Shown here piece after piece: positions 19,188-43,784 of a stretch of DNA of 64,000 nucleotides. Each line of letters opens with the position of its first letter. Position 1 is the first letter of the stretch. Under the pieces are notes generated by a model that made no database searches, was not told the DNA's origin, and saw nothing but the letters and a program-made list of their open reading frames with translations. The stretch lies in IMG/VR virus record IMGVR_UViG_3300048065_001187, positions 86,767 through 150,766 of that record, one strand, 5' to 3'. A program made the position numbers and the translations under genes. Source of the DNA: a virus.

Positions 19188-19216
19188 TTGACAAACTATT
19201 TTTTTTGTGCTATATT
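19188..19216 (+). promoter_or_regulatory. sigma70-type promoter, leaderless spacing
   Basis: TTGACA-N17-TATATT with ATG 7 nt downstream (19224). Confidence 0.75.
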
Positions 19217-19223
19217 TTATAGC

Positions 19224-19763
19224 ATGTCAAATTTATTATACAAAACTAGAACTTATTTAGTTGGCCATATGCAATATCTTAGTGGTCGAGATTGGCGTAA
19301 AGAAGTCACAGATAAACTTAATCGCCTTGAAATAACCTGCTTCAATCCATACGAAAAACCATTCATAAAAGATGTCGAAGAAGATGAAGCTTCGCGTCAA
19401 GAAATGGAAACATGGATGAAAACTAAGCAGTATGATCGCGTAACTGAAAAAATGAAAACAGTACGATCTTACGATCTGAATCTCGTTGATCGTAGTGATT
19501 TTATTGTAGCTCATTTAGTTCCTGATGTTGCTAGCTGGGGGAGTGCCGAAGAAATCGTTACTGCTGTACGCATGAAAAAACCTATTTTTATCAGCATGGA
19601 AGGCGGTAAATCAAAAACACCTCTTTGGATGCTAGGAATGTTGCCCCATAAATTTATTTATAATAATCTTGACGAAGTCATAGAAATGTTGTATGCTATA
19701 GATAATGGCAGTAAACCAATTGATTCAGATAGATGGAGACTCTTAAGAAAGGAATATAGATAA
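19224..19763 (+). CDS. Nucleoside 2-deoxyribosyltransferase-like / nucleotide N-hydrolase
   Basis: YLVGHM, FNPY, DLNLVDRSD and GSAEEI (catalytic Glu) motifs. Start moved to the ATG because the track's TTG lies in the -35 box. Confidence 0.7.
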   Translation: MSNLLYKTRTYLVGHMQYLSGRDWRKEVTDKLNRLEITCFNPYEKPFIKDVEEDEASRQEMETWMKTKQYDRVTEKMKTVRSYDLNLVDRSDFIVAHLVPDVASWGSAEEIVTAVRMKKPIFISMEGGKSKTPLWMLGMLPHKFIYNNLDEVIEMLYAIDNGSKPIDSDRWRLLRKEYR

Positions 19764-19876: not shown

Positions 19877-20128
19877 ATGTCAGATAAAAAAGAAAATACA
19901 GAGTGGAATGATCGCGAGATCGGTGCATTATGGGTAAACGTAAAGCAAGGCAGTAATGACAAGTACCTAACGGGGCAAGTCAATGGAGAAAAGGTCATCA
20001 TGTTTAAAAACAAGTACAAGGATGATAATCCTAAGGCTCCAGATTTCCGTATGTACAAGCAAAAAGATCAAGAAGGAGCTACCAAGTCTGCTCAAAAACA
20101 AGAAGAACCTGAAGTAGATCTTATCTAA
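19877..20128 (+). CDS. DUF736-like small protein
   Basis: EIGALW...YLTG...KAPDFR motif and acidic tail. Confidence 0.6.
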   Translation: MSDKKENTEWNDREIGALWVNVKQGSNDKYLTGQVNGEKVIMFKNKYKDDNPKAPDFRMYKQKDQEGATKSAQKQEEPEVDLI

Positions 20129-21249
20129 TGAACAATAAGTACGGATTAGTTTGTGTTTCTAAAATCCTACAAGAAGAAGATAAATCAAATTCTTTTGTAG
20201 GCATCACTAGAAAAGCTTATGCTGAGCTTGCGTCAGAAAAAGGCGATCAAGAAGCAAAGAAAAAACTGAAAGATGAAATCCTTCATAATCTAAACTTAAC
20301 TGTAAAGATTATAGATTTCTGCCGTACTAATAATATTGATCACTATAGATTAAATACTTCTATCTTTGGCATCATAGCAGATCCTTCCTTTGATTTATCT
20401 GTCAATGATTTACCTCAGCGTGAAGATGTTCTTGATGCAATCAAAGAGATAGGAAGAACTTCTATTACAAAAGGGGTATCTTTATCCATTCAGCCTGATA
20501 AATTTTGTAAGCTGATAGACGATGACGATGGTGTTGTAGAGAAATCAATCAAGGAGTTAAATTTCTACTCTTGGTTTCTTGATGAAATCGGAACGCAGGA
20601 GAATATTTCTGCTCCGATCCATCTGCATCTAAACTCTCAGCCTGAAAAACAAGATCATGATTCTTACTGTGATTTCACTGATAGGTTTTATGAGAATTTT
20701 AAGGAACTTGATTCAGGAGCTCAGCGGCGTTTAGTTTTAAAGAATGCTGACCATGGTGTTTGGAGTGCGTTTAATTTATTTAAATATTTGCATGTCTATT
20801 GTTTTGAAGAACACGATTTTGGATTTCCTTTGGCATACAATAATTTATTTGATTCCTTAAACCCATCTAAAATAGATAACTCAGTTGTCGATCAACAGAT
20901 AAATGTAGGAGCATTTCACGAAACATGGAGCGGTGTTGTTCCTGTTTTTACTTGGACTGAATCTAAAAGTGCAGATCAACCAAGGGCATTTGCCCCTGAG
21001 CTTTCTGCTCATATTCCTGACTTTGGTTATCAAATCAAATGGGAAGTAGATGTCACTGACAAGGACATAGCTATACTAAAATTATTCTCTGAAGAAGGTC
21101 CAAGCAGAATTTCTGAAGAGGCTCTTCGTAAGATTACTCGTGGAAGATATCAAAAAGTAACCAACAACTATAATGCACTATATGAAGCGGCGAGACAAGT
21201 CAACATTGTTGCTGAAAACAATGACGATCAAATAGTTGGCGGACAATAA
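20128..21249 (+). CDS. UvsE/UVDE-fold protein, predicted catalytically inactive paralogue
   Basis: Colinear with the UvsE at 42199 (GLxCxSxIL, TRK, ILHN, HYRL, ELNF, PVF, KWE), but the metal ligands are substituted. Confidence 0.8.
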   Translation: MNNKYGLVCVSKILQEEDKSNSFVGITRKAYAELASEKGDQEAKKKLKDEILHNLNLTVKIIDFCRTNNIDHYRLNTSIFGIIADPSFDLSVNDLPQREDVLDAIKEIGRTSITKGVSLSIQPDKFCKLIDDDDGVVEKSIKELNFYSWFLDEIGTQENISAPIHLHLNSQPEKQDHDSYCDFTDRFYENFKELDSGAQRRLVLKNADHGVWSAFNLFKYLHVYCFEEHDFGFPLAYNNLFDSLNPSKIDNSVVDQQINVGAFHETWSGVVPVFTWTESKSADQPRAFAPELSAHIPDFGYQIKWEVDVTDKDIAILKLFSEEGPSRISEEALRKITRGRYQKVTNNYNALYEAARQVNIVAENNDDQIVGGQ

Positions 21250-21301: not shown

Positions 21302-21669
21302 GGGCGTGTACTGGATTCGATTTAAATTGGATTAGTATACTGCAAGTAGGAGTTGCATCTGGCTCCTTAAAAAGGTGCAAAAGTTTACATGGCAATAAAG
21401 CACGTGTTAAGACCTTTGGTTTTCGTAAGACTGCCAAGGTCGCAATGGCAGCATAAAGTCTGTCACCTCGTAACTTTTGACGCAGATAAAAAGATTGCGG
21501 GGTTATCAATCTGCAAAACAGATAAAAGTTTTCTTGTATAATAAACTGTAAATAATTGAAACAAGAAGTTGGATGTTAATATCATAACTTTAAAAAAAAT
21601 TAACTAAACTTGTAGATGTATATTCTTAAAGGTTTAAAGACGGGAGTTCGACTCTCCCCACGTCCACCA
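21302..21669 (+). ncRNA. ssrA: tmRNA (SsrA), tag (A)GNKARVKTFGFRKTAKVAMAA
   Basis: Acceptor stem GGGCGTG/CACGTCC with G3:U alanine identity pair, A discriminator and encoded CCA. 5' GGATTCGA motif. T-arm GGGAG-TTCGACT-CTCCC. Tag ORF 21391-21456 ends AMAA-stop. Confidence 0.96.
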
Positions 21670-21676
21670 TTTTACT

Positions 21677-22957
21677 ATGAATACAAACGAATTAAACAGA
21701 AGAGAATTTATTGCTAGAGCCGCCAAATCTTATTTGGGGGTAGGGCTAATGCCTTTGGTTGGGTCTTACATTCACGATAACGCATATGCCCTCACCCCGG
21801 GCACTCGCCCTGCAAAAGCACGGCATGTCATTTACTTGAATATGGCTGGAGCAATGTCGCATCTAGACACCCTTGACCCCAAGCCTCAAAGCCCCGATGT
21901 TCAAGGTCCAGTTGAAGCTATACAAACAAGTGTTGATGATTTATTTCTTTCTGAAAACTTACCTACAGTTGCTAGGCATATGCATAATGCCGCCATTGTT
22001 CGTTCAGTAACCAGTAATCAAGGTGCACATGAACAGGCTAGCTATCTTATGCATACAAGCTATCAAAAACGCGGCACAATTGTACATCCAACCTTTGGTA
22101 GCTGGGTTTCAAAACTTTCCGGCTCTATCAACAGAACTATTCCTGCGAATGTAAAGATCGGTGGGGGAGGAGGCGGAGCTGGCTTCTTAGAATCTCGCTA
22201 CGGAGCTTTACCTCTTAGAAATCCTAAAGCAGGGTTAGCTAACAGCTCAATGGCTGACTATTTAGACAGCACACAATTTAATGATAGAATAAAAGCTGCG
22301 GAACAATTAAATGCAGTATTTAGCGAGCAATATAATCAAAAACAAATTCGTGCTTATACTGATTTATATAAAGATGCAGTTAAATTAATGCAGAGTGAAG
22401 ATTTAAAGGCATTTGATATTTCTGCTGAGCCAGAAGCTGTGACTGAATTATACGGAGACAGTAACTTTGGTCAGGGATGCTTGCTTGCAAGAAGATTGAT
22501 TGAGAATAAAGTTCGGTATGTTGAAGTAACTCGCGGGGGATGGGATACACATGATAACAATTTTGATCGCGTGGCTGCTAATTGTGCAGATATTGATAAA
22601 GCATTAGGTGCATTACTTTTTGATTTAGAAATTCGTGGACTACTTAATGAAACCTTAGTTGTTCTTACATCTGAATTTGGGCGCACTCCTAAAATCAATC
22701 CAAGAGATGGTAGAGATCATTGGCCAAAAGCTTTCTCTGCTTTCTTTGCTGGTGGAGCAGTAAAAGGCGGCACAATATATGGTCAGAGCGATGATAAAGG
22801 TATGGAAGTTGCGGAAAACCCTGTAAAACCTGAGGATTTAAATGCAACAATAGCTTATGCATTAGGGTTATCGCTTAACGACATTCATTACTCTCCCTCT
22901 GGAAGACCTTTTCAAATTGCACACAAAGGTCAACCAATTCTAGATATATTAGCATAA
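21677..22957 (+). CDS. DUF1501 family protein with a Tat signal peptide
   Basis: LNRREF twin-arginine signal. VIYLNMAGAMSHLDTLDP, FGQGCLLARRL, GWDTH, SEFGRTP, GRDHW and GGAVKGG motifs. Confidence 0.9.
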   Translation: MNTNELNRREFIARAAKSYLGVGLMPLVGSYIHDNAYALTPGTRPAKARHVIYLNMAGAMSHLDTLDPKPQSPDVQGPVEAIQTSVDDLFLSENLPTVARHMHNAAIVRSVTSNQGAHEQASYLMHTSYQKRGTIVHPTFGSWVSKLSGSINRTIPANVKIGGGGGGAGFLESRYGALPLRNPKAGLANSSMADYLDSTQFNDRIKAAEQLNAVFSEQYNQKQIRAYTDLYKDAVKLMQSEDLKAFDISAEPEAVTELYGDSNFGQGCLLARRLIENKVRYVEVTRGGWDTHDNNFDRVAANCADIDKALGALLFDLEIRGLLNETLVVLTSEFGRTPKINPRDGRDHWPKAFSAFFAGGAVKGGTIYGQSDDKGMEVAENPVKPEDLNATIAYALGLSLNDIHYSPSGRPFQIAHKGQPILDILA

Positions 22958-23026: not shown

Positions 23027-23833
23027 TTATTCAGGGCGTTTACCTAAAGGTTTTCCGTCTTGACCAATTTCACCAGCTCTAATTTTAGTCGCCGATACCT
23101 CTTGAAGCTCTTTACTTAACTCAAGTTGCTCAATATTGTAGCCTACGCCCCTTCCATAAAACACATCTGTAATATTAGGAAGTTCAACTACTTTTATTTT
23201 ATTCCCAAATTCAGAACATGCTGCATGTATTTCTGCTTTTACTTTTTCAAAATCATAAGGATTCTTTTCGTCTATACCAGCAACATCTCTTAATGCTATA
23301 CAGCATTGCCCTGTTCTTTTGATTGATTCTGCTACCAAAGTTTTGTGTCCAATATGAAACGGTTGATATCTACCTATGAGTAGTGCTGTTGGTGCTTGAT
23401 TATCCCATGCTTCTGTCTCATTTAATTTATCCATAACTTTATCTGCCCAATCGTCTGCATTGCCATCAGTCAATCTAATATCGTAGTTCAGGGGACGTTC
23501 AAACATTTTATTAGTATCTTCGTATCTACCTTCCATGATTCTATCAACCCATATTGTGAAGTCAGCCCCAAAAGCTTGCCTTGTTTCTTGCGTCGGGCAA
23601 ACGAAGTCGGCAATTACATATCCTCCACCTAATTTAGCCCAATCGCAAAGCTTTCCCATTCTTGTGGCATGCTTTATTCTATCTTCTGAGGAAAACCCTA
23701 GCTCAGAATATATGTCCTGCCTAACAGCATCTGCATTAAACCATGCGGCGTTTAACTTGTGAACCAATATTTCGGCAAGTGTTGTTTTGCCGGAACCAGG
23801 TAGACCCATAATTAAAATTTTTCTCTTAGTCAT
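23027..23833 (-). CDS. cysC: Adenylylsulfate kinase-like domain fused to a HIGH-class nucleotidyltransferase domain
   Basis: GLPGSGKTT, NADAVR, LGFSSEDR and DFVCP (CysC-like). C-terminal GRYQPFHIGH, NPY and SATKIR. Confidence 0.75.
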   Translation of the reverse strand: MTKRKILIMGLPGSGKTTLAEILVHKLNAAWFNADAVRQDIYSELGFSSEDRIKHATRMGKLCDWAKLGGGYVIADFVCPTQETRQAFGADFTIWVDRIMEGRYEDTNKMFERPLNYDIRLTDGNADDWADKVMDKLNETEAWDNQAPTALLIGRYQPFHIGHKTLVAESIKRTGQCCIALRDVAGIDEKNPYDFEKVKAEIHAACSEFGNKIKVVELPNITDVFYGRGVGYNIEQLELSKELQEVSATKIRAGEIGQDGKPLGKRPE

Positions 23834-40722: not shown

Positions 40723-41065
40723 ATGGTGGATATTATTATTGTTTACATTTGGTTGTCAATCGAGTAAGGTTGAAGAAGAAATTGATTTACCTCCACCTCC
40801 GCCATTACCTACGCATTTTCTCATTCCAAATGCTCCACCAAATTTTATACCCGATATAAGAGAAATCCAAATAAACTCTGTACCTCATCCATTTCGTATT
40901 TCGGGGACATATGTCGTTTGGGTTAATAAAAAAAAGTTGAACTTAAATAAGCACCAAGTCGATCAATTAGTAAAGCATTTAGATTTGTCAATGGAAATAC
41001 CAAAGAATACAGCCCAAATACATAGCGGAGAAGGATGGTTATTTCCTTTTGATATAGATGAGTGA
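40712..41065 (+). CDS. Proline-rich lipoprotein
   Basis: LLFTFGC lipobox and PPPPPLP. Confidence 0.6.
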   Translation: MKNKWWILLLFTFGCQSSKVEEEIDLPPPPPLPTHFLIPNAPPNFIPDIREIQINSVPHPFRISGTYVVWVNKKKLNLNKHQVDQLVKHLDLSMEIPKNTAQIHSGEGWLFPFDIDE

Positions 41066-41468
41066 AAAAGATTTACCCGATAATGTCGCACCAAATCCTC
41101 ACTCATTACCTTATGCAAGTAATTTAGGCGCTCCTGTCATTCGCCCCGATCATAGTCTTGGTGGATGGAAATTAGGTGCAGTACATACTGCAAATAAACA
41201 CTACGAAGAGCGATTTAATAAATTAAAACAAGAGTTTGAGGGGTTAGCGGAAGATTACAAGTGGAATCAAATAATATTTAACGCAGAGATGCGCTTCAAA
41301 CCTGTTATTGGTAAGGAATATTTTTTATATAAAAAGAGTGATGGAAGTTTTTACTTGACTTTATTTGCCCCTCATGAGAAGATAGGTGGAAATGAAGGAT
41401 ACCAAGGTAAATTTAGACTTAATTATGATAATAGATGGGAGCAAATAAAATGTGGAACTACCGAATAA
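41058..41468 (+). CDS. DUF2452-like protein
   Basis: LPYASNLGAP...A..RFKPVIGKEYFLY motif. Confidence 0.65.
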   Translation: MSEKDLPDNVAPNPHSLPYASNLGAPVIRPDHSLGGWKLGAVHTANKHYEERFNKLKQEFEGLAEDYKWNQIIFNAEMRFKPVIGKEYFLYKKSDGSFYLTLFAPHEKIGGNEGYQGKFRLNYDNRWEQIKCGTTE

Positions 41469-42198: not shown

Positions 42199-43206
42199 AT
42201 GACACAAATACTAGGACTAACTTGCATAAGTGAAATACTAAAAGAAAAGGATAAAGCAAAATATTCTTTTCGCACAATGACTCGCAAACGCTTTAATGAT
42301 TTGTGTAACCAAGAAGGTAGAGATGAAGCAGTCAATCAATTATCTGAAAGAATTTTGCACAATGTTATTGTTACTCAATATATTGTCAATCATTGTCATT
42401 CCTCAAATCTTAGGCATTATCGTCTTAGTTCTGCTCTTTTTCCTCTCCTTACCGACCAAACTTTGGATATTTCTCTTGAAGATTTACCGCACAAAGCAAG
42501 AATAGAACAAGAGCTAAAGTTAGTAGGTTTAATTGCGGAAAAGTTTGATATATCAATTGGTTCTCACCCCGATCAATTTAATGTTCTTGCATCTCCCGAT
42601 AGAGACAAAGTTAATCGTACAATAAACGAACTTAATTTTCAAGCAAGCGTTCTTGATATGATTGGTTTACCTCAAGATCATACTGCACCAATGAATATTC
42701 ATATTAACTATTCGCCAAAAGAAGATGAAACATTGGAAGTTGTTGCTACTAGATTTTTTCGCAACCTTTCTATGTGTGATAAAGGTGTTTACAAGCGTCT
42801 TACTATTGAAAACGAAGACAAAGGTTTCTTTAATGTAGATAACTGCATGGCATTTAGTGATTACTTGTTTAAAACATTTGGTGCAATGATCCCTGTTTGT
42901 TTTGACAACTTACATCATATGTGCAACCCATCAGAAGAGTCTTGTATTAAGTGGCAAGCCGAGCGTTGTGCATATACTTGGGTTAGTCAAGGGGATGGTG
43001 ACAGCAATTTCATTGCTCCTGTCTTTCATTGGTCAGAAGGCAATCCACAAAAACCTCGCTCTCATGCAGATTATTTTTCTTTTATGAATGCTCCACCATA
43101 CATTGCTATTGAACCTAACAAACCTGTGAAGTGGGAATGTGAAGTTAAGCAAAAAGACAAAGCAATTCAAGTCTTGCGAAATAATCTAGCAGAAAAAAGC
43201 GCGTGA
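42199..43206 (+). CDS. uvsE: UV-damage endonuclease UvsE
   Basis: HPDQF, NIH, LTIENED, FDNLHH, FHWSE, RSHAD and EVKQKD catalytic motifs are intact. Confidence 0.92.
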   Translation: MTQILGLTCISEILKEKDKAKYSFRTMTRKRFNDLCNQEGRDEAVNQLSERILHNVIVTQYIVNHCHSSNLRHYRLSSALFPLLTDQTLDISLEDLPHKARIEQELKLVGLIAEKFDISIGSHPDQFNVLASPDRDKVNRTINELNFQASVLDMIGLPQDHTAPMNIHINYSPKEDETLEVVATRFFRNLSMCDKGVYKRLTIENEDKGFFNVDNCMAFSDYLFKTFGAMIPVCFDNLHHMCNPSEESCIKWQAERCAYTWVSQGDGDSNFIAPVFHWSEGNPQKPRSHADYFSFMNAPPYIAIEPNKPVKWECEVKQKDKAIQVLRNNLAEKSA

Positions 43207-43304: not shown

Positions 43305-43784
43305 ATGGTAAAAATAATAGATGGCAATCTTCTTAATTTTCCAAATGGCATTGACTTTATAGCTCATTCATGCAACACTCATAATGTTATGGGGGCAGGA
43401 ATTGCTAGGGAAATAAAATATCGCTACCCTAATGCTTACTCTGCTGATTGTCATGCAATGATGGATGGTGATAATGTTTTGGGCGGTTTTAGTTTTTCGG
43501 TGACTGATGCTACTCAAAGCAAAGGTATCTACAATATGTATACCCAAGATAAAATCGGGGGCAAAAGAGCAGTTAATTATGAAGCATTTTATGTTGCATT
43601 GAATAAAGTAGCGGGTCATATCGAATGGCAATCCAAGCATGAAGAAGTAGAAAAGACTTTAGGCTTGCCTTGGGGTATTTCTTGTGGACTCGCAGGGGGA
43701 AGTTGGAATGTAATTTTTTCAATGATAAATGATATTTTGATTGACAGAAAGTTTAAAACATATATCGTTAAGTATGATGAATGA
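43305..43784 (+). CDS. Macrodomain (ADP-ribose binding/hydrolase) protein
   Basis: GNLL, AHSCN...MGAGIA and ISCGLAGG motifs. TTGACT-N17-TAAGGT promoter. Confidence 0.85.
   Translation: MVKIIDGNLLNFPNGIDFIAHSCNTHNVMGAGIAREIKYRYPNAYSADCHAMMDGDNVLGGFSFSVTDATQSKGIYNMYTQDKIGGKRAVNYEAFYVALNKVAGHIEWQSKHEEVEKTLGLPWGISCGLAGGSWNVIFSMINDILIDRKFKTYIVKYDE

What the first reader, a model, noticed from the sequence alone, without database searches (positions are those of the whole stretch)
20128..21249. Catalytically dead UvsE paralogue kept alongside an intact UvsE
Seen by aligning to 42199-43206: HPDQF>QPDKF, IENED>LKNAD, FDNLHH>YNNLFD, FHWSE>FTWTE, RSHAD>RAFAP and CEVKQKD>VDVTDKD. Only the xIH/xLH His remains. 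The ORF is otherwise intact, keeps the barrel scaffold residues and has a ~50-aa C-terminal extension. Known: these His/Asp/Glu residues are the trinuclear metal ligands of UVDE, and the Q-aromatic pair is the lesion-probing finger. Inference: systematic ligand loss with no frameshift suggests a repurposed pseudoenzyme. It could be a lesion or modified-base shield, a nucleotide-signal sponge, or a dominant-negative partner. It is TAATG-coupled to a DUF736-like gene and sits directly before tmRNA.
Basis: partly seen in the sequence, partly recalled or inferred. Interest (0 to 1): 0.75.

Follow-up and report, generated by a model that had tools for sequence, protein, structure and literature searches.

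The report
Conserved dead UV-endonuclease paralogue in marine phages
An uncultured marine phage keeps, beside a normal UV-damage endonuclease, a second full-length copy that has lost the metal-binding residues needed to cut DNA yet is strongly conserved in about ninety related phage lineages, so it is a repurposed "pseudo-nuclease" whose new job is still unknown.

Summary
ORF 20128-21249 (373 aa) has a UvdE TIM-barrel fold. It keeps only 1 of the 8 metal ligands that are invariant in 94 canonical representatives, and one more is a Glu-to-Asp change. An intact copy lies at 42199-43206.

This is not decay:
- dN/dS is about 0.03 in the two unsaturated pairs.
- The frame is open in all 18 viral loci examined.
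- About 92 ligand-deficient proteins (38-87% identity) form one clade with support 1.0, and ligands were lost stepwise within it.
- All five related phage records that are at least 90% complete carry both copies.

New points:
- The dead copy almost always follows a small DUF736-like gene with an acidic-hydrophobic C-terminal tip (16 of 18 dead loci, 0 of 16 intact-type loci).
- In one related contig a ligand-intact UvdE occupies the same slot. It has the same small partner gene, the same C-terminal extension ending in a [FY]Nx[LI]Y motif, and the same acidity. These features therefore predate the loss of catalysis.
- tmRNA adjacency is lineage synteny only.

Function is unresolved. My best reading is a non-cleaving binding or docking subunit working with the small protein. 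A new enzyme activity is not excluded. The scan flagged this family before in three other genomes. No paper describing it was found.

The parts
20128..21249 (+). Ligand-deficient UvdE-fold paralogue (373 aa): barrel residues 1-320, C-terminal extension 321-373
   Evidence: ORF. Pfam UvdE 6.9e-19. AF2 pLDDT 91.3. Foldseek best matches are SacUVDE 4gle (E 1.3e-17, TM 0.84) and TthUVDE 2j6v.
20491..20505 (+). QPDKF (res 122-126). It replaces H-P-x-Q-[FY]: first metal His becomes Gln, finger Gln becomes Lys, aromatic kept.
20737..20751 (+). LKNAD (res 204-208). The bridging Glu (Tth E175) becomes Lys205. The following canonical Lys (ENEDK) is also lost (His209).
20836..20853 (+). YNNLFD (res 237-242). 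Tth D200 becomes Asn238 and H203 becomes Phe241. Asp242 is invariant in the dead clade.
20947..20997 (+). FTWTE and RAFAP (res 274-290). The H231-equivalent becomes Thr275 and the H244-equivalent becomes Phe288.
21046..21066 (+). VDVTDKD (res 307-313). The E269-equivalent becomes Asp308. The canonical invariant Lys (E-x-K) becomes Thr310.
21148..21186 (+). Conserved C-terminal motif Y341 ... Y-N-A-L-Y-E (348-353) in a low-confidence helix
   Evidence: Invariant or near-invariant across dead subclades. The same [FY]Nx[LIV]Y(G) end occurs on ligand-intact relatives P0100, P0114, L072 and L073.
19877..20128 (+). 83-aa DUF736-like gene overlapping the paralogue's start (TAATG): beta core, acidic linker, E-x-D-L-I tip
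   Evidence: It lies directly upstream of 16 of 18 dead loci and 0 of 16 intact-type loci.
19188..19763 (+). Nucleoside 2-deoxyribosyltransferase-like gene, conserved upstream neighbour
   Evidence: Pfam PF15891 2e-8. It lies within 0.1-2.4 kb upstream of the UvdE-like gene in clade A, clade B, P0058, P0099 and P0100 contexts.
42199..43206 (+). Intact UvdE paralogue (335 aa) with all eight ligands and the Q-F finger
21302..21669 (+). Phage tmRNA gene, a neighbour by synteny and not shown to be functionally linked
   Evidence: Rfam RF00023, 121 bits. Its position relative to the gene varies among subclades.

Best explanation
The ORF encodes a catalytically inactive member of the UvdE (UV damage endonuclease) TIM-barrel family. 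It is retained by selection for a binding role, not a cutting role.

Shown:
- It descends from a phage UvdE sub-lineage that already carried a C-terminal extension ending in a [FY]Nx[LI]Y motif.
- That sub-lineage was already paired with a small DUF736-like protein that has an acidic-hydrophobic C-terminal tip. One related contig still has this state with all ligands intact.
- In phages that also carry a second, canonical UvdE, this copy lost ligands of all three metal sites stepwise. It kept the barrel, many polar cleft residues, the C-terminal motif and tight coupling to the small gene.

Inferred:
- It can no longer incise DNA.
- It acts as a non-cleaving subunit that, together with the small protein, binds DNA structures or docks to the same partner the ancestral active enzyme used.
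- Incision is left to the canonical copy.

The confidence given is for the whole statement. For 'selected, inactive paralogue' alone I would say about 0.9.
For: Fold and homology.

Ligand loss: 7 of 8 columns that are invariant in 94 canonical representatives are changed. By recalled site assignment each of the three metal sites keeps at most one ligand. Mn or Co is required for UVDE activity (PMC3553973).

Selection:
- dN/dS is 0.032 and 0.030 in the two unsaturated pairs. All other pairs show dN 0.07-0.29 with saturated dS.
- Amino-acid divergence is similar to the intact copy across the same genome pairs.
- 98 clusters were found.
- The replaced residues are themselves fixed within subclades.

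Phylogeny: the dead clade of 94 tips has support 1.0 and is nested among canonical phage UvdEs. Intermediates are present.

Co-retention: both copies occur in 9 records and in 5 of 5 records that are at least 90% complete.

Partner gene: 16 of 18 against 0 of 16 loci, with gaps of 29 nt or less.

Ancestral state: P0100/L038 has intact ligands, the same slot, the same small gene and the same tail.
Against: - No biochemical data exist.
- Many polar residues on the catalytic face stay invariant (D124, N206, N239, D242, E278, E306, D308, D313). The dead clade has its own conserved His/Glu positions in insertions (H177, H222, E227). A different chemistry or a single-metal site is therefore not excluded.
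- Basal members such as P0058 (H-E-D-D-H-R-H-D) may retain partial activity.
- Canonical DNA-contact features are eroded: the finger is not conserved between subclades, and K209 and K310 are lost. DNA binding in the old mode is therefore doubtful.
- Physical interaction with the small protein was not tested.
- The small-protein family is much larger (707 clusters), so it is not an exclusive partner.
Confidence: 0.55

Rival explanations
1. A pure protein-interaction regulator or competitor. The dead barrel no longer binds DNA. It uses its retained C-terminal [FY]NALY motif and surface to occupy the docking partner of UvdE-type enzymes, or to hold the small protein. It thereby modulates, possibly dominant-negatively, the canonical UvdE or a host factor.
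For: - Loss of conserved basic residues that the ligand-intact relative P0100 keeps.
- The finger is not conserved.
- The C-terminal motif is conserved and is shared with active relatives, where it sits at the end of low-complexity linkers.
- Dead-clade-specific surface motifs: FKYxHVYxxE and NxGAFHETW.
Against: - No partner has been identified.
- No phage clamp was found by PF02916 or PF00712.
- R74, R201 and K312, and most cleft polar residues, are retained.
Confidence: 0.2
2. A neofunctionalised enzyme. The barrel now catalyses a different reaction, metal-independent or single-metal, on a nucleotide, a sugar-phosphate or modified DNA. It would be functionally linked to the neighbouring nucleotide-metabolism genes.
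For: - Invariant acidic and polar residues remain on the catalytic face, and new conserved His/Glu positions appear.
- The neighbourhood is conserved: Nuc_deoxyribosyltransferase-like, NUDIX, dUTPase, dCMP deaminase, IMPDH-like and SNase genes.
- Sugar epimerases/isomerases share the fold.
Against: - Residues filling the old metal pocket differ between subclades (Q/K/N/F/T against Y/Q/Y/A/L). That is not expected for one conserved catalytic centre.
- Most invariant polar residues are inherited second-shell residues also present in canonical UvdE.
- The neighbourhood is equally explained by lineage synteny.
Confidence: 0.15
3. A still-active nuclease with a reduced or alternative metal site, for example using H167, D242, E278 and D308.
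For: - The Glu-to-Asp change keeps a carboxylate.
- Most of clade A keeps two His.
- Basal members keep more ligands.
Against: - The bridging Glu is Lys or Gln in all major subclades.
- Clade B keeps no His at all.
- The eight ligands are invariant in every canonical representative, which implies that all are needed.
Confidence: 0.07
4. A decaying pseudogene or chance ORF.
For: Loss of catalytic residues alone would fit.
Against: - dN/dS is about 0.03.
- Frames are intact in 18 of 18 viral loci and in about 90 clusters down to 38% identity.
- The AF2 model is confident.
Confidence: 0.02

Closest known systems
UV damage endonuclease UVDE/UvsE/Uve1 (Pfam PF03851; structures TthUVDE 2j6v, SacUVDE 3tc3/4gle)
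   Same: Homologous TIM barrel (Foldseek E 1e-17, TM 0.84-0.85). It shares scaffold and second-shell residues (N54, R74, R201, N206, W267, E278, D313). It derives from phage UvdE by duplication.
   Different: - It lacks 7 of 8 trinuclear metal ligands and the finger Gln.
- It lacks the conserved Lys after ENxD and the Lys of E-x-K.
- It has helix insertions (218-227) and a 50-aa C-terminal extension.
- It is paired with a small DUF736-like gene.
Ligand-intact, C-terminally extended phage UvdE in the same syntenic slot (P0100, locus L038:5792-6919)
   Same: - Same neighbours: Ndt-like gene, small DUF736-like gene overlapping the start, IMPDH-like gene downstream.
- Same extension, ending in Y-N-A-I-Y.
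- Similar FKW/YxHxY helix.
- Same strong acidity (net -22).
   Different: It keeps all eight ligands, the Q-Y finger, and K199, K209 and K310. It is presumably an active nuclease.
Pseudoenzymes/pseudonucleases in general (catalytically dead paralogues kept for binding or regulation)
   Same: Catalytic residues are lost under strong purifying selection, an active paralogue co-exists, and interaction motifs are retained.
   Different: No partner or activity has been demonstrated here. No described UvdE-family pseudoenzyme was found in the paper library.
Hub-docking proteins with a folded core, a variable linker and an acidic-hydrophobic C-terminal tip (bacterial SSB tail; T4 gp43/gp55/gp33 clamp-binding ends, PMC2988020)
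   Same: The small upstream protein has this architecture. Active relatives of the extended UvdE also carry a short hydrophobic motif at the end of a variable linker.
   Different: - The small protein's core is a 4-stranded beta meander with no OB or SSB match (best Z 3.8).
- No clamp gene was found in the phage.
- The analogy is architectural only.

Membership tests
UvdE / UVDE (PF03851) | Sequence match to the family profile above the curated cut-off | tested here: met
   68.6 bits against a 24-bit cut-off, but only profile positions 2-191. PHROG 8420 'endonuclease' 7e-16.
UvdE / UVDE (PF03851) | UVDE-type TIM-barrel fold | tested here: met
   AF2 pLDDT 91.3. Foldseek ranks 1-9 are all UVDE chains, E 1e-17 to 1e-13, target TM 0.80-0.85.
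UvdE / UVDE (PF03851) | Eight ligands of the trinuclear metal centre (Tth H101, H143, E175, D200, H203, H231, H244, E269) | tested here: not met
   Q122, H167, K205, N238, F241, T275, F288, D308. Only H167 is kept. The columns are invariant in 94 canonical representatives.
UvdE / UVDE (PF03851) | Probing finger Gln-Tyr/Phe after the first His | tested here: not met
   K125-F126 here and S-T in clade B, against Q-[FY] in most canonical proteins. The role of the finger is described in PMC3553973.
UvdE / UVDE (PF03851) | Mn/Co-dependent incision 5' of UV lesions | not testable with these tools
   Needs a nicking assay.
Pseudoenzyme (selected, inactive paralogue) | Purifying selection despite loss of catalytic residues | tested here: met
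   dN/dS 0.032 (window vs L003) and 0.030 (L004 vs L006). Other pairs are dS-saturated with low dN. The rate is like the intact copy.
Pseudoenzyme (selected, inactive paralogue) | Loss conserved across a clade, with an active paralogue retained | tested here: met
   Clade of 94 tips, support 1.0. Both copies in 5 of 5 records that are at least 90% complete.
Pseudoenzyme (selected, inactive paralogue) | Demonstrated absence of the ancestral activity | not testable with these tools
   Needs biochemistry.
DUF736 (PF05284), for the upstream small protein | Profile match above the cut-off | tested here: inconclusive
   The window protein scores 17.2 bits against 22.1. The clade-B orthologue scores 22.4 against 22.1. 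The nearest Atlas cluster is 27% DUF736, score 0.94. JGI names relatives as DUF736 family.
SSB / OB-fold ssDNA-binding protein, for the upstream small protein | OB fold | tested here: inconclusive
   AF2 core pLDDT above 90, a 4-strand meander. No Foldseek hit at E <= 0.001. Best VIA Z is 3.8, to propeller blades.

The most novel reading that the evidence does not exclude
The pseudo-UvdE and the DUF736-like acidic-tailed protein form a dedicated non-catalytic module. It arose when an accessory-assisted repair nuclease lost its active site after a second UvdE took over incision. It now works as a lesion or structure sensor, or as a hub-docking competitor. It would recruit, time or restrain repair (or host factors) on phage DNA through its retained C-terminal [FY]NALY motif and the partner's SSB-tail-like tip.
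Probability: 0.2. Interest if true: 0.7.

Novelty: new variant of a known kind. Interest (0 to 1): 0.55.

Why it matters
UvdE is treated as a single-protein, one-step alternative excision repair enzyme. No non-catalytic family member or accessory factor was found in the paper library searched.

Here a large clade of ocean phages keeps an inactivated copy under strong selection beside an active one. A ligand-intact orthologue survives in the same genomic slot, which gives a natural before-and-after pair for experiments.

It also matters for annotation. Pipelines name these proteins 'UV DNA damage repair endonuclease', which overstates the UV-repair capacity inferred for marine viromes.

The consistent pairing with a DUF736-like protein gives a first functional handle on that uncharacterised family.

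Tried and rejected
No result exists.
- Fold of the small protein: no meaningful PDB match.
- Fused forms of the small protein: one 232-aa hit only, probably a gene-calling artefact.
- PHROGs: nothing for the small protein or the Ndt-like protein.
- Phage-encoded sliding clamp as docking partner: no PF02916 or PF00712 match in the 150-kb genome. The PF02916 control rang nowhere, so that search is uninformative.
- Net charge as evidence against DNA binding: the dead clade is acidic (median net -16 against -1). The ligand-intact P0100 is equally acidic (net -22), so I withdrew this argument.
- tmRNA linkage: it lies directly downstream in clade A and L027. In clade B it is upstream, and in the P0099/P0053 contexts it is 2 kb away. 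I treat it as synteny.
- Cultured phages: no relative of the dead copy in 50,697 phage records except one distant hit in an uncultured 642-kb phage. Canonical hits are below 28% identity, mostly in large phages of 180-500 kb.
- Literature: no paper on inactive UvdE paralogues was found.

Full report
**1. What is there**

The window is the last 64 kb of a 150,766-bp IMG/VR viral record that CheckV rates complete.

ORF 20128-21249 (+) encodes 373 aa. ORF 42199-43206 (+) encodes 335 aa. They share 32% identity (E 1e-54), and both exceed the Pfam UvdE cut-off. The first matches only the N-terminal two-thirds of the profile.

An AlphaFold2 model built on a 104-sequence alignment is confident (pLDDT 91.3). 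It shows a TIM barrel over residues 1-320 and a low-confidence helix over 330-364. Its nine best Foldseek matches are all UVDE chains: SacUVDE 4gle/3tc3 and TthUVDE 2j6v (E 1e-17 to 1e-13, target TM 0.80-0.85).

**2. The ligand loss is real and specific**

HMMER alignment to the TthUVDE chain (numbering offset 21) places H101, Q104/Y105, E175, D200 and H203 in the HPxQ[FY], ENxD and DxLHH motifs. This fits the Q104/Y105 'probing finger' numbering in PMC3553973 and the PDB entry titled UVDE E175A.

I aligned 191 proteins from an exhaustive HMMER search and a word-indexed search. All 94 canonical representatives read H-H-E-D-H-H-H-E at the eight ligand columns. The ORF reads Q122-H167-K205-N238-F241-T275-F288-D308. 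The finger Gln is Lys125, and its aromatic partner Phe126 is kept.

By recalled analogy with endonuclease IV and TthUVDE, each of the three metal sites keeps at most one ligand. UVDE needs Mn or Co for activity (PMC3553973). The copy at 42199 has all eight ligands and the finger.

**3. It is selected, not decaying**

- Nine IMG/VR relatives (69-97% identity) have intact frames.
- The two pairs with unsaturated dS give dN/dS of 0.032 and 0.030. All other pairs have saturated dS with dN of 0.07-0.29.
- Between the same genome pairs the dead copy is about as conserved as the intact copy: 69-89% against 71-90% identity.
- The word-indexed search found 98 clusters down to 38% identity, all from marine or aquatic metagenomes. 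Sources call them 'UV DNA damage repair endonuclease' or leave them unnamed.

**4. Evolutionary history**

In a FastTree LG tree, 94 ligand-deficient proteins form one clade with support 1.0. The clade is nested among canonical phage UvdEs. The window's intact copy lies in a nearby canonical group.

Ligand loss is graded within the clade:
- A basal form reads H-E-D-D-H-R-H-D.
- Others read H-H-K-D-H-N-P-E.
- Clade A, which includes the window, reads Q-H-K-N-[FY]-T-[H/F/L/Y]-D.
- Clade B reads Y-K-Q-[YHS]-A-L-[SP]-D.

The substitute residues are fixed within subclades but differ between them. Two separate ligand-deficient singletons (P0121, P0124) suggest the loss happened more than once.

**5. 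Both copies are kept together**

Nine viral records carry one canonical and one deficient copy. These include all five records that are at least 90% complete. Records with only the deficient copy are 33-81% complete.

**6. The informative neighbour is the small gene**

The 83-aa ORF 19877-20128 overlaps the start of the dead copy (TAATG).

Orthologues have three parts:
- a conserved core of about 60 aa (W10, E14, G16, A17, W19, G33, P55, D56 and Y60 are invariant);
- a linker of variable length, rich in acidic and Ser residues;
- a conserved acidic-hydrophobic tip (E-x-D-L-I, I-P-D-S-L-V, V-P-Q-F).

In a survey of IMG/VR with a dead-clade profile, 16 of 18 deficient loci have this gene 29 nt or less upstream. 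None of 16 canonical loci does.

It is marginally DUF736-like: 17.2 bits here, 22.4 bits for a clade-B orthologue, against a cut-off of 22.1. Its model is a 4-stranded beta meander with no convincing PDB match. The family is large, at 707 clusters.

A nucleoside 2-deoxyribosyltransferase-like gene is also a conserved upstream neighbour. The wider context is nucleotide and DNA metabolism: NUDIX, dUTPase, dCMP deaminase, an IMPDH-like gene, SNase and a Holliday-junction endonuclease.

**7. A ligand-intact orthologue in the same slot**

P0100 (L038:5792-6919, 375 aa) has all eight ligands, the finger, and the basic residues K199, K209 and K310.

It nevertheless sits after an Ndt-like gene, a NUDIX gene and a homologous small gene that abuts its start (2 nt apart) and ends E-E-I-P-E-V-F-Q. 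It carries the same FKWxHxY helix and a C-terminal extension ending Y-N-A-I-Y-G-V. It is as acidic as the dead clade, with a net charge of -22.

Other intact relatives (P0114, L072, L073) end in [FY]-N-x-[IVL]-Y-G after Pro/Lys/Glu-rich linkers.

So the extension, its terminal motif, the pairing with the small protein and the acidity all predate inactivation. In the dead clade the motif (Y341, N349, L351, Y352) is invariant or nearly so.

**8. What changed with inactivation**

Besides the ligands, the dead clade lost basic residues that are conserved in canonical proteins:
- Arg/Lys at position 24;
- Lys/Arg at 199;
- the Lys after ENxD at 209 (78% K/R in canonical proteins);
- the invariant Lys of E-x-K at 310 (T in clade A).

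It kept R74, R201 and K312. Many polar residues on the catalytic face remain invariant. The clade also has its own conserved positions in insertions: H177 and F218-E227.

**9. Interpretation**

That this is a selected pseudo-nuclease is well supported; I put it at about 0.9.

How it works is inferred. It most likely acts by binding, together with the small protein, and through the docking motif inherited from its active ancestor. The canonical copy would perform the incision.

I cannot say whether it still binds DNA:
- The finger and several basic residues are gone.
- Parts of the purine-pocket region (the I/L and S/A positions equivalent to Sac L65/S67) persist.

A new enzymatic activity remains possible. 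The differing pocket residues between subclades argue against one conserved catalytic centre.

The tmRNA adjacency is synteny.

**10. Prior notes and literature**

The scan had already flagged this family in three other genomes, and this same stretch once more. I treated those notes as leads only. No paper describing inactive UvdE paralogues was found.

Noticed in passing
window 21302-21669 (+): The phage encodes a tmRNA (RF00023, 121 bits). A tmRNA lies within about 5 kb of the UvdE-like gene in nearly every related contig scanned with Rfam, but its position and side vary.
   Followed up: partly
window 19188-19763 (+): Nucleoside 2-deoxyribosyltransferase-like gene, by eye roughly 80% identical between phages whose dead UvdE copies are only 38% identical. 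A strong sigma70-like site (TTGACA-17-TATATT with TG, 11 of 12) at 19188-19216 suggests the real start is the internal ATG (MSNLLYK...), as in orthologues.
   Followed up: partly
window 21677-22957 (+): DUF1501 protein (2.5e-111) with what looks by eye like a twin-arginine signal at its N-terminus, placed right after the tmRNA. This is unusual cargo for a phage and may relate to the sulfated-glycan genes noted elsewhere in this genome.
   Followed up: no
window 23027-23833 (-): 268-aa fusion of an APS-kinase-like P-loop domain with a cytidylyltransferase-like (HIGH) domain.
   Followed up: no
window 43305-43784 (+): The gene directly after the intact UvdE has a weak Macro-domain match (E 0.0019, below the cut-off). 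A DUF2452 protein lies about 0.7 kb upstream at 41058-41468.
   Followed up: no
L038:5792-6919, L072:3061-4155, L073:3061-4161: Ligand-intact phage UvdEs carry a C-terminal [FY]Nx[ILV]YG peptide after a low-complexity linker. It looks like a short docking motif. Its partner is unknown.
   Followed up: partly
proteins P0121 and P0124: Two further UvdE-family representatives outside the main dead clade also lack most ligands. This suggests independent inactivation events.
   Followed up: no
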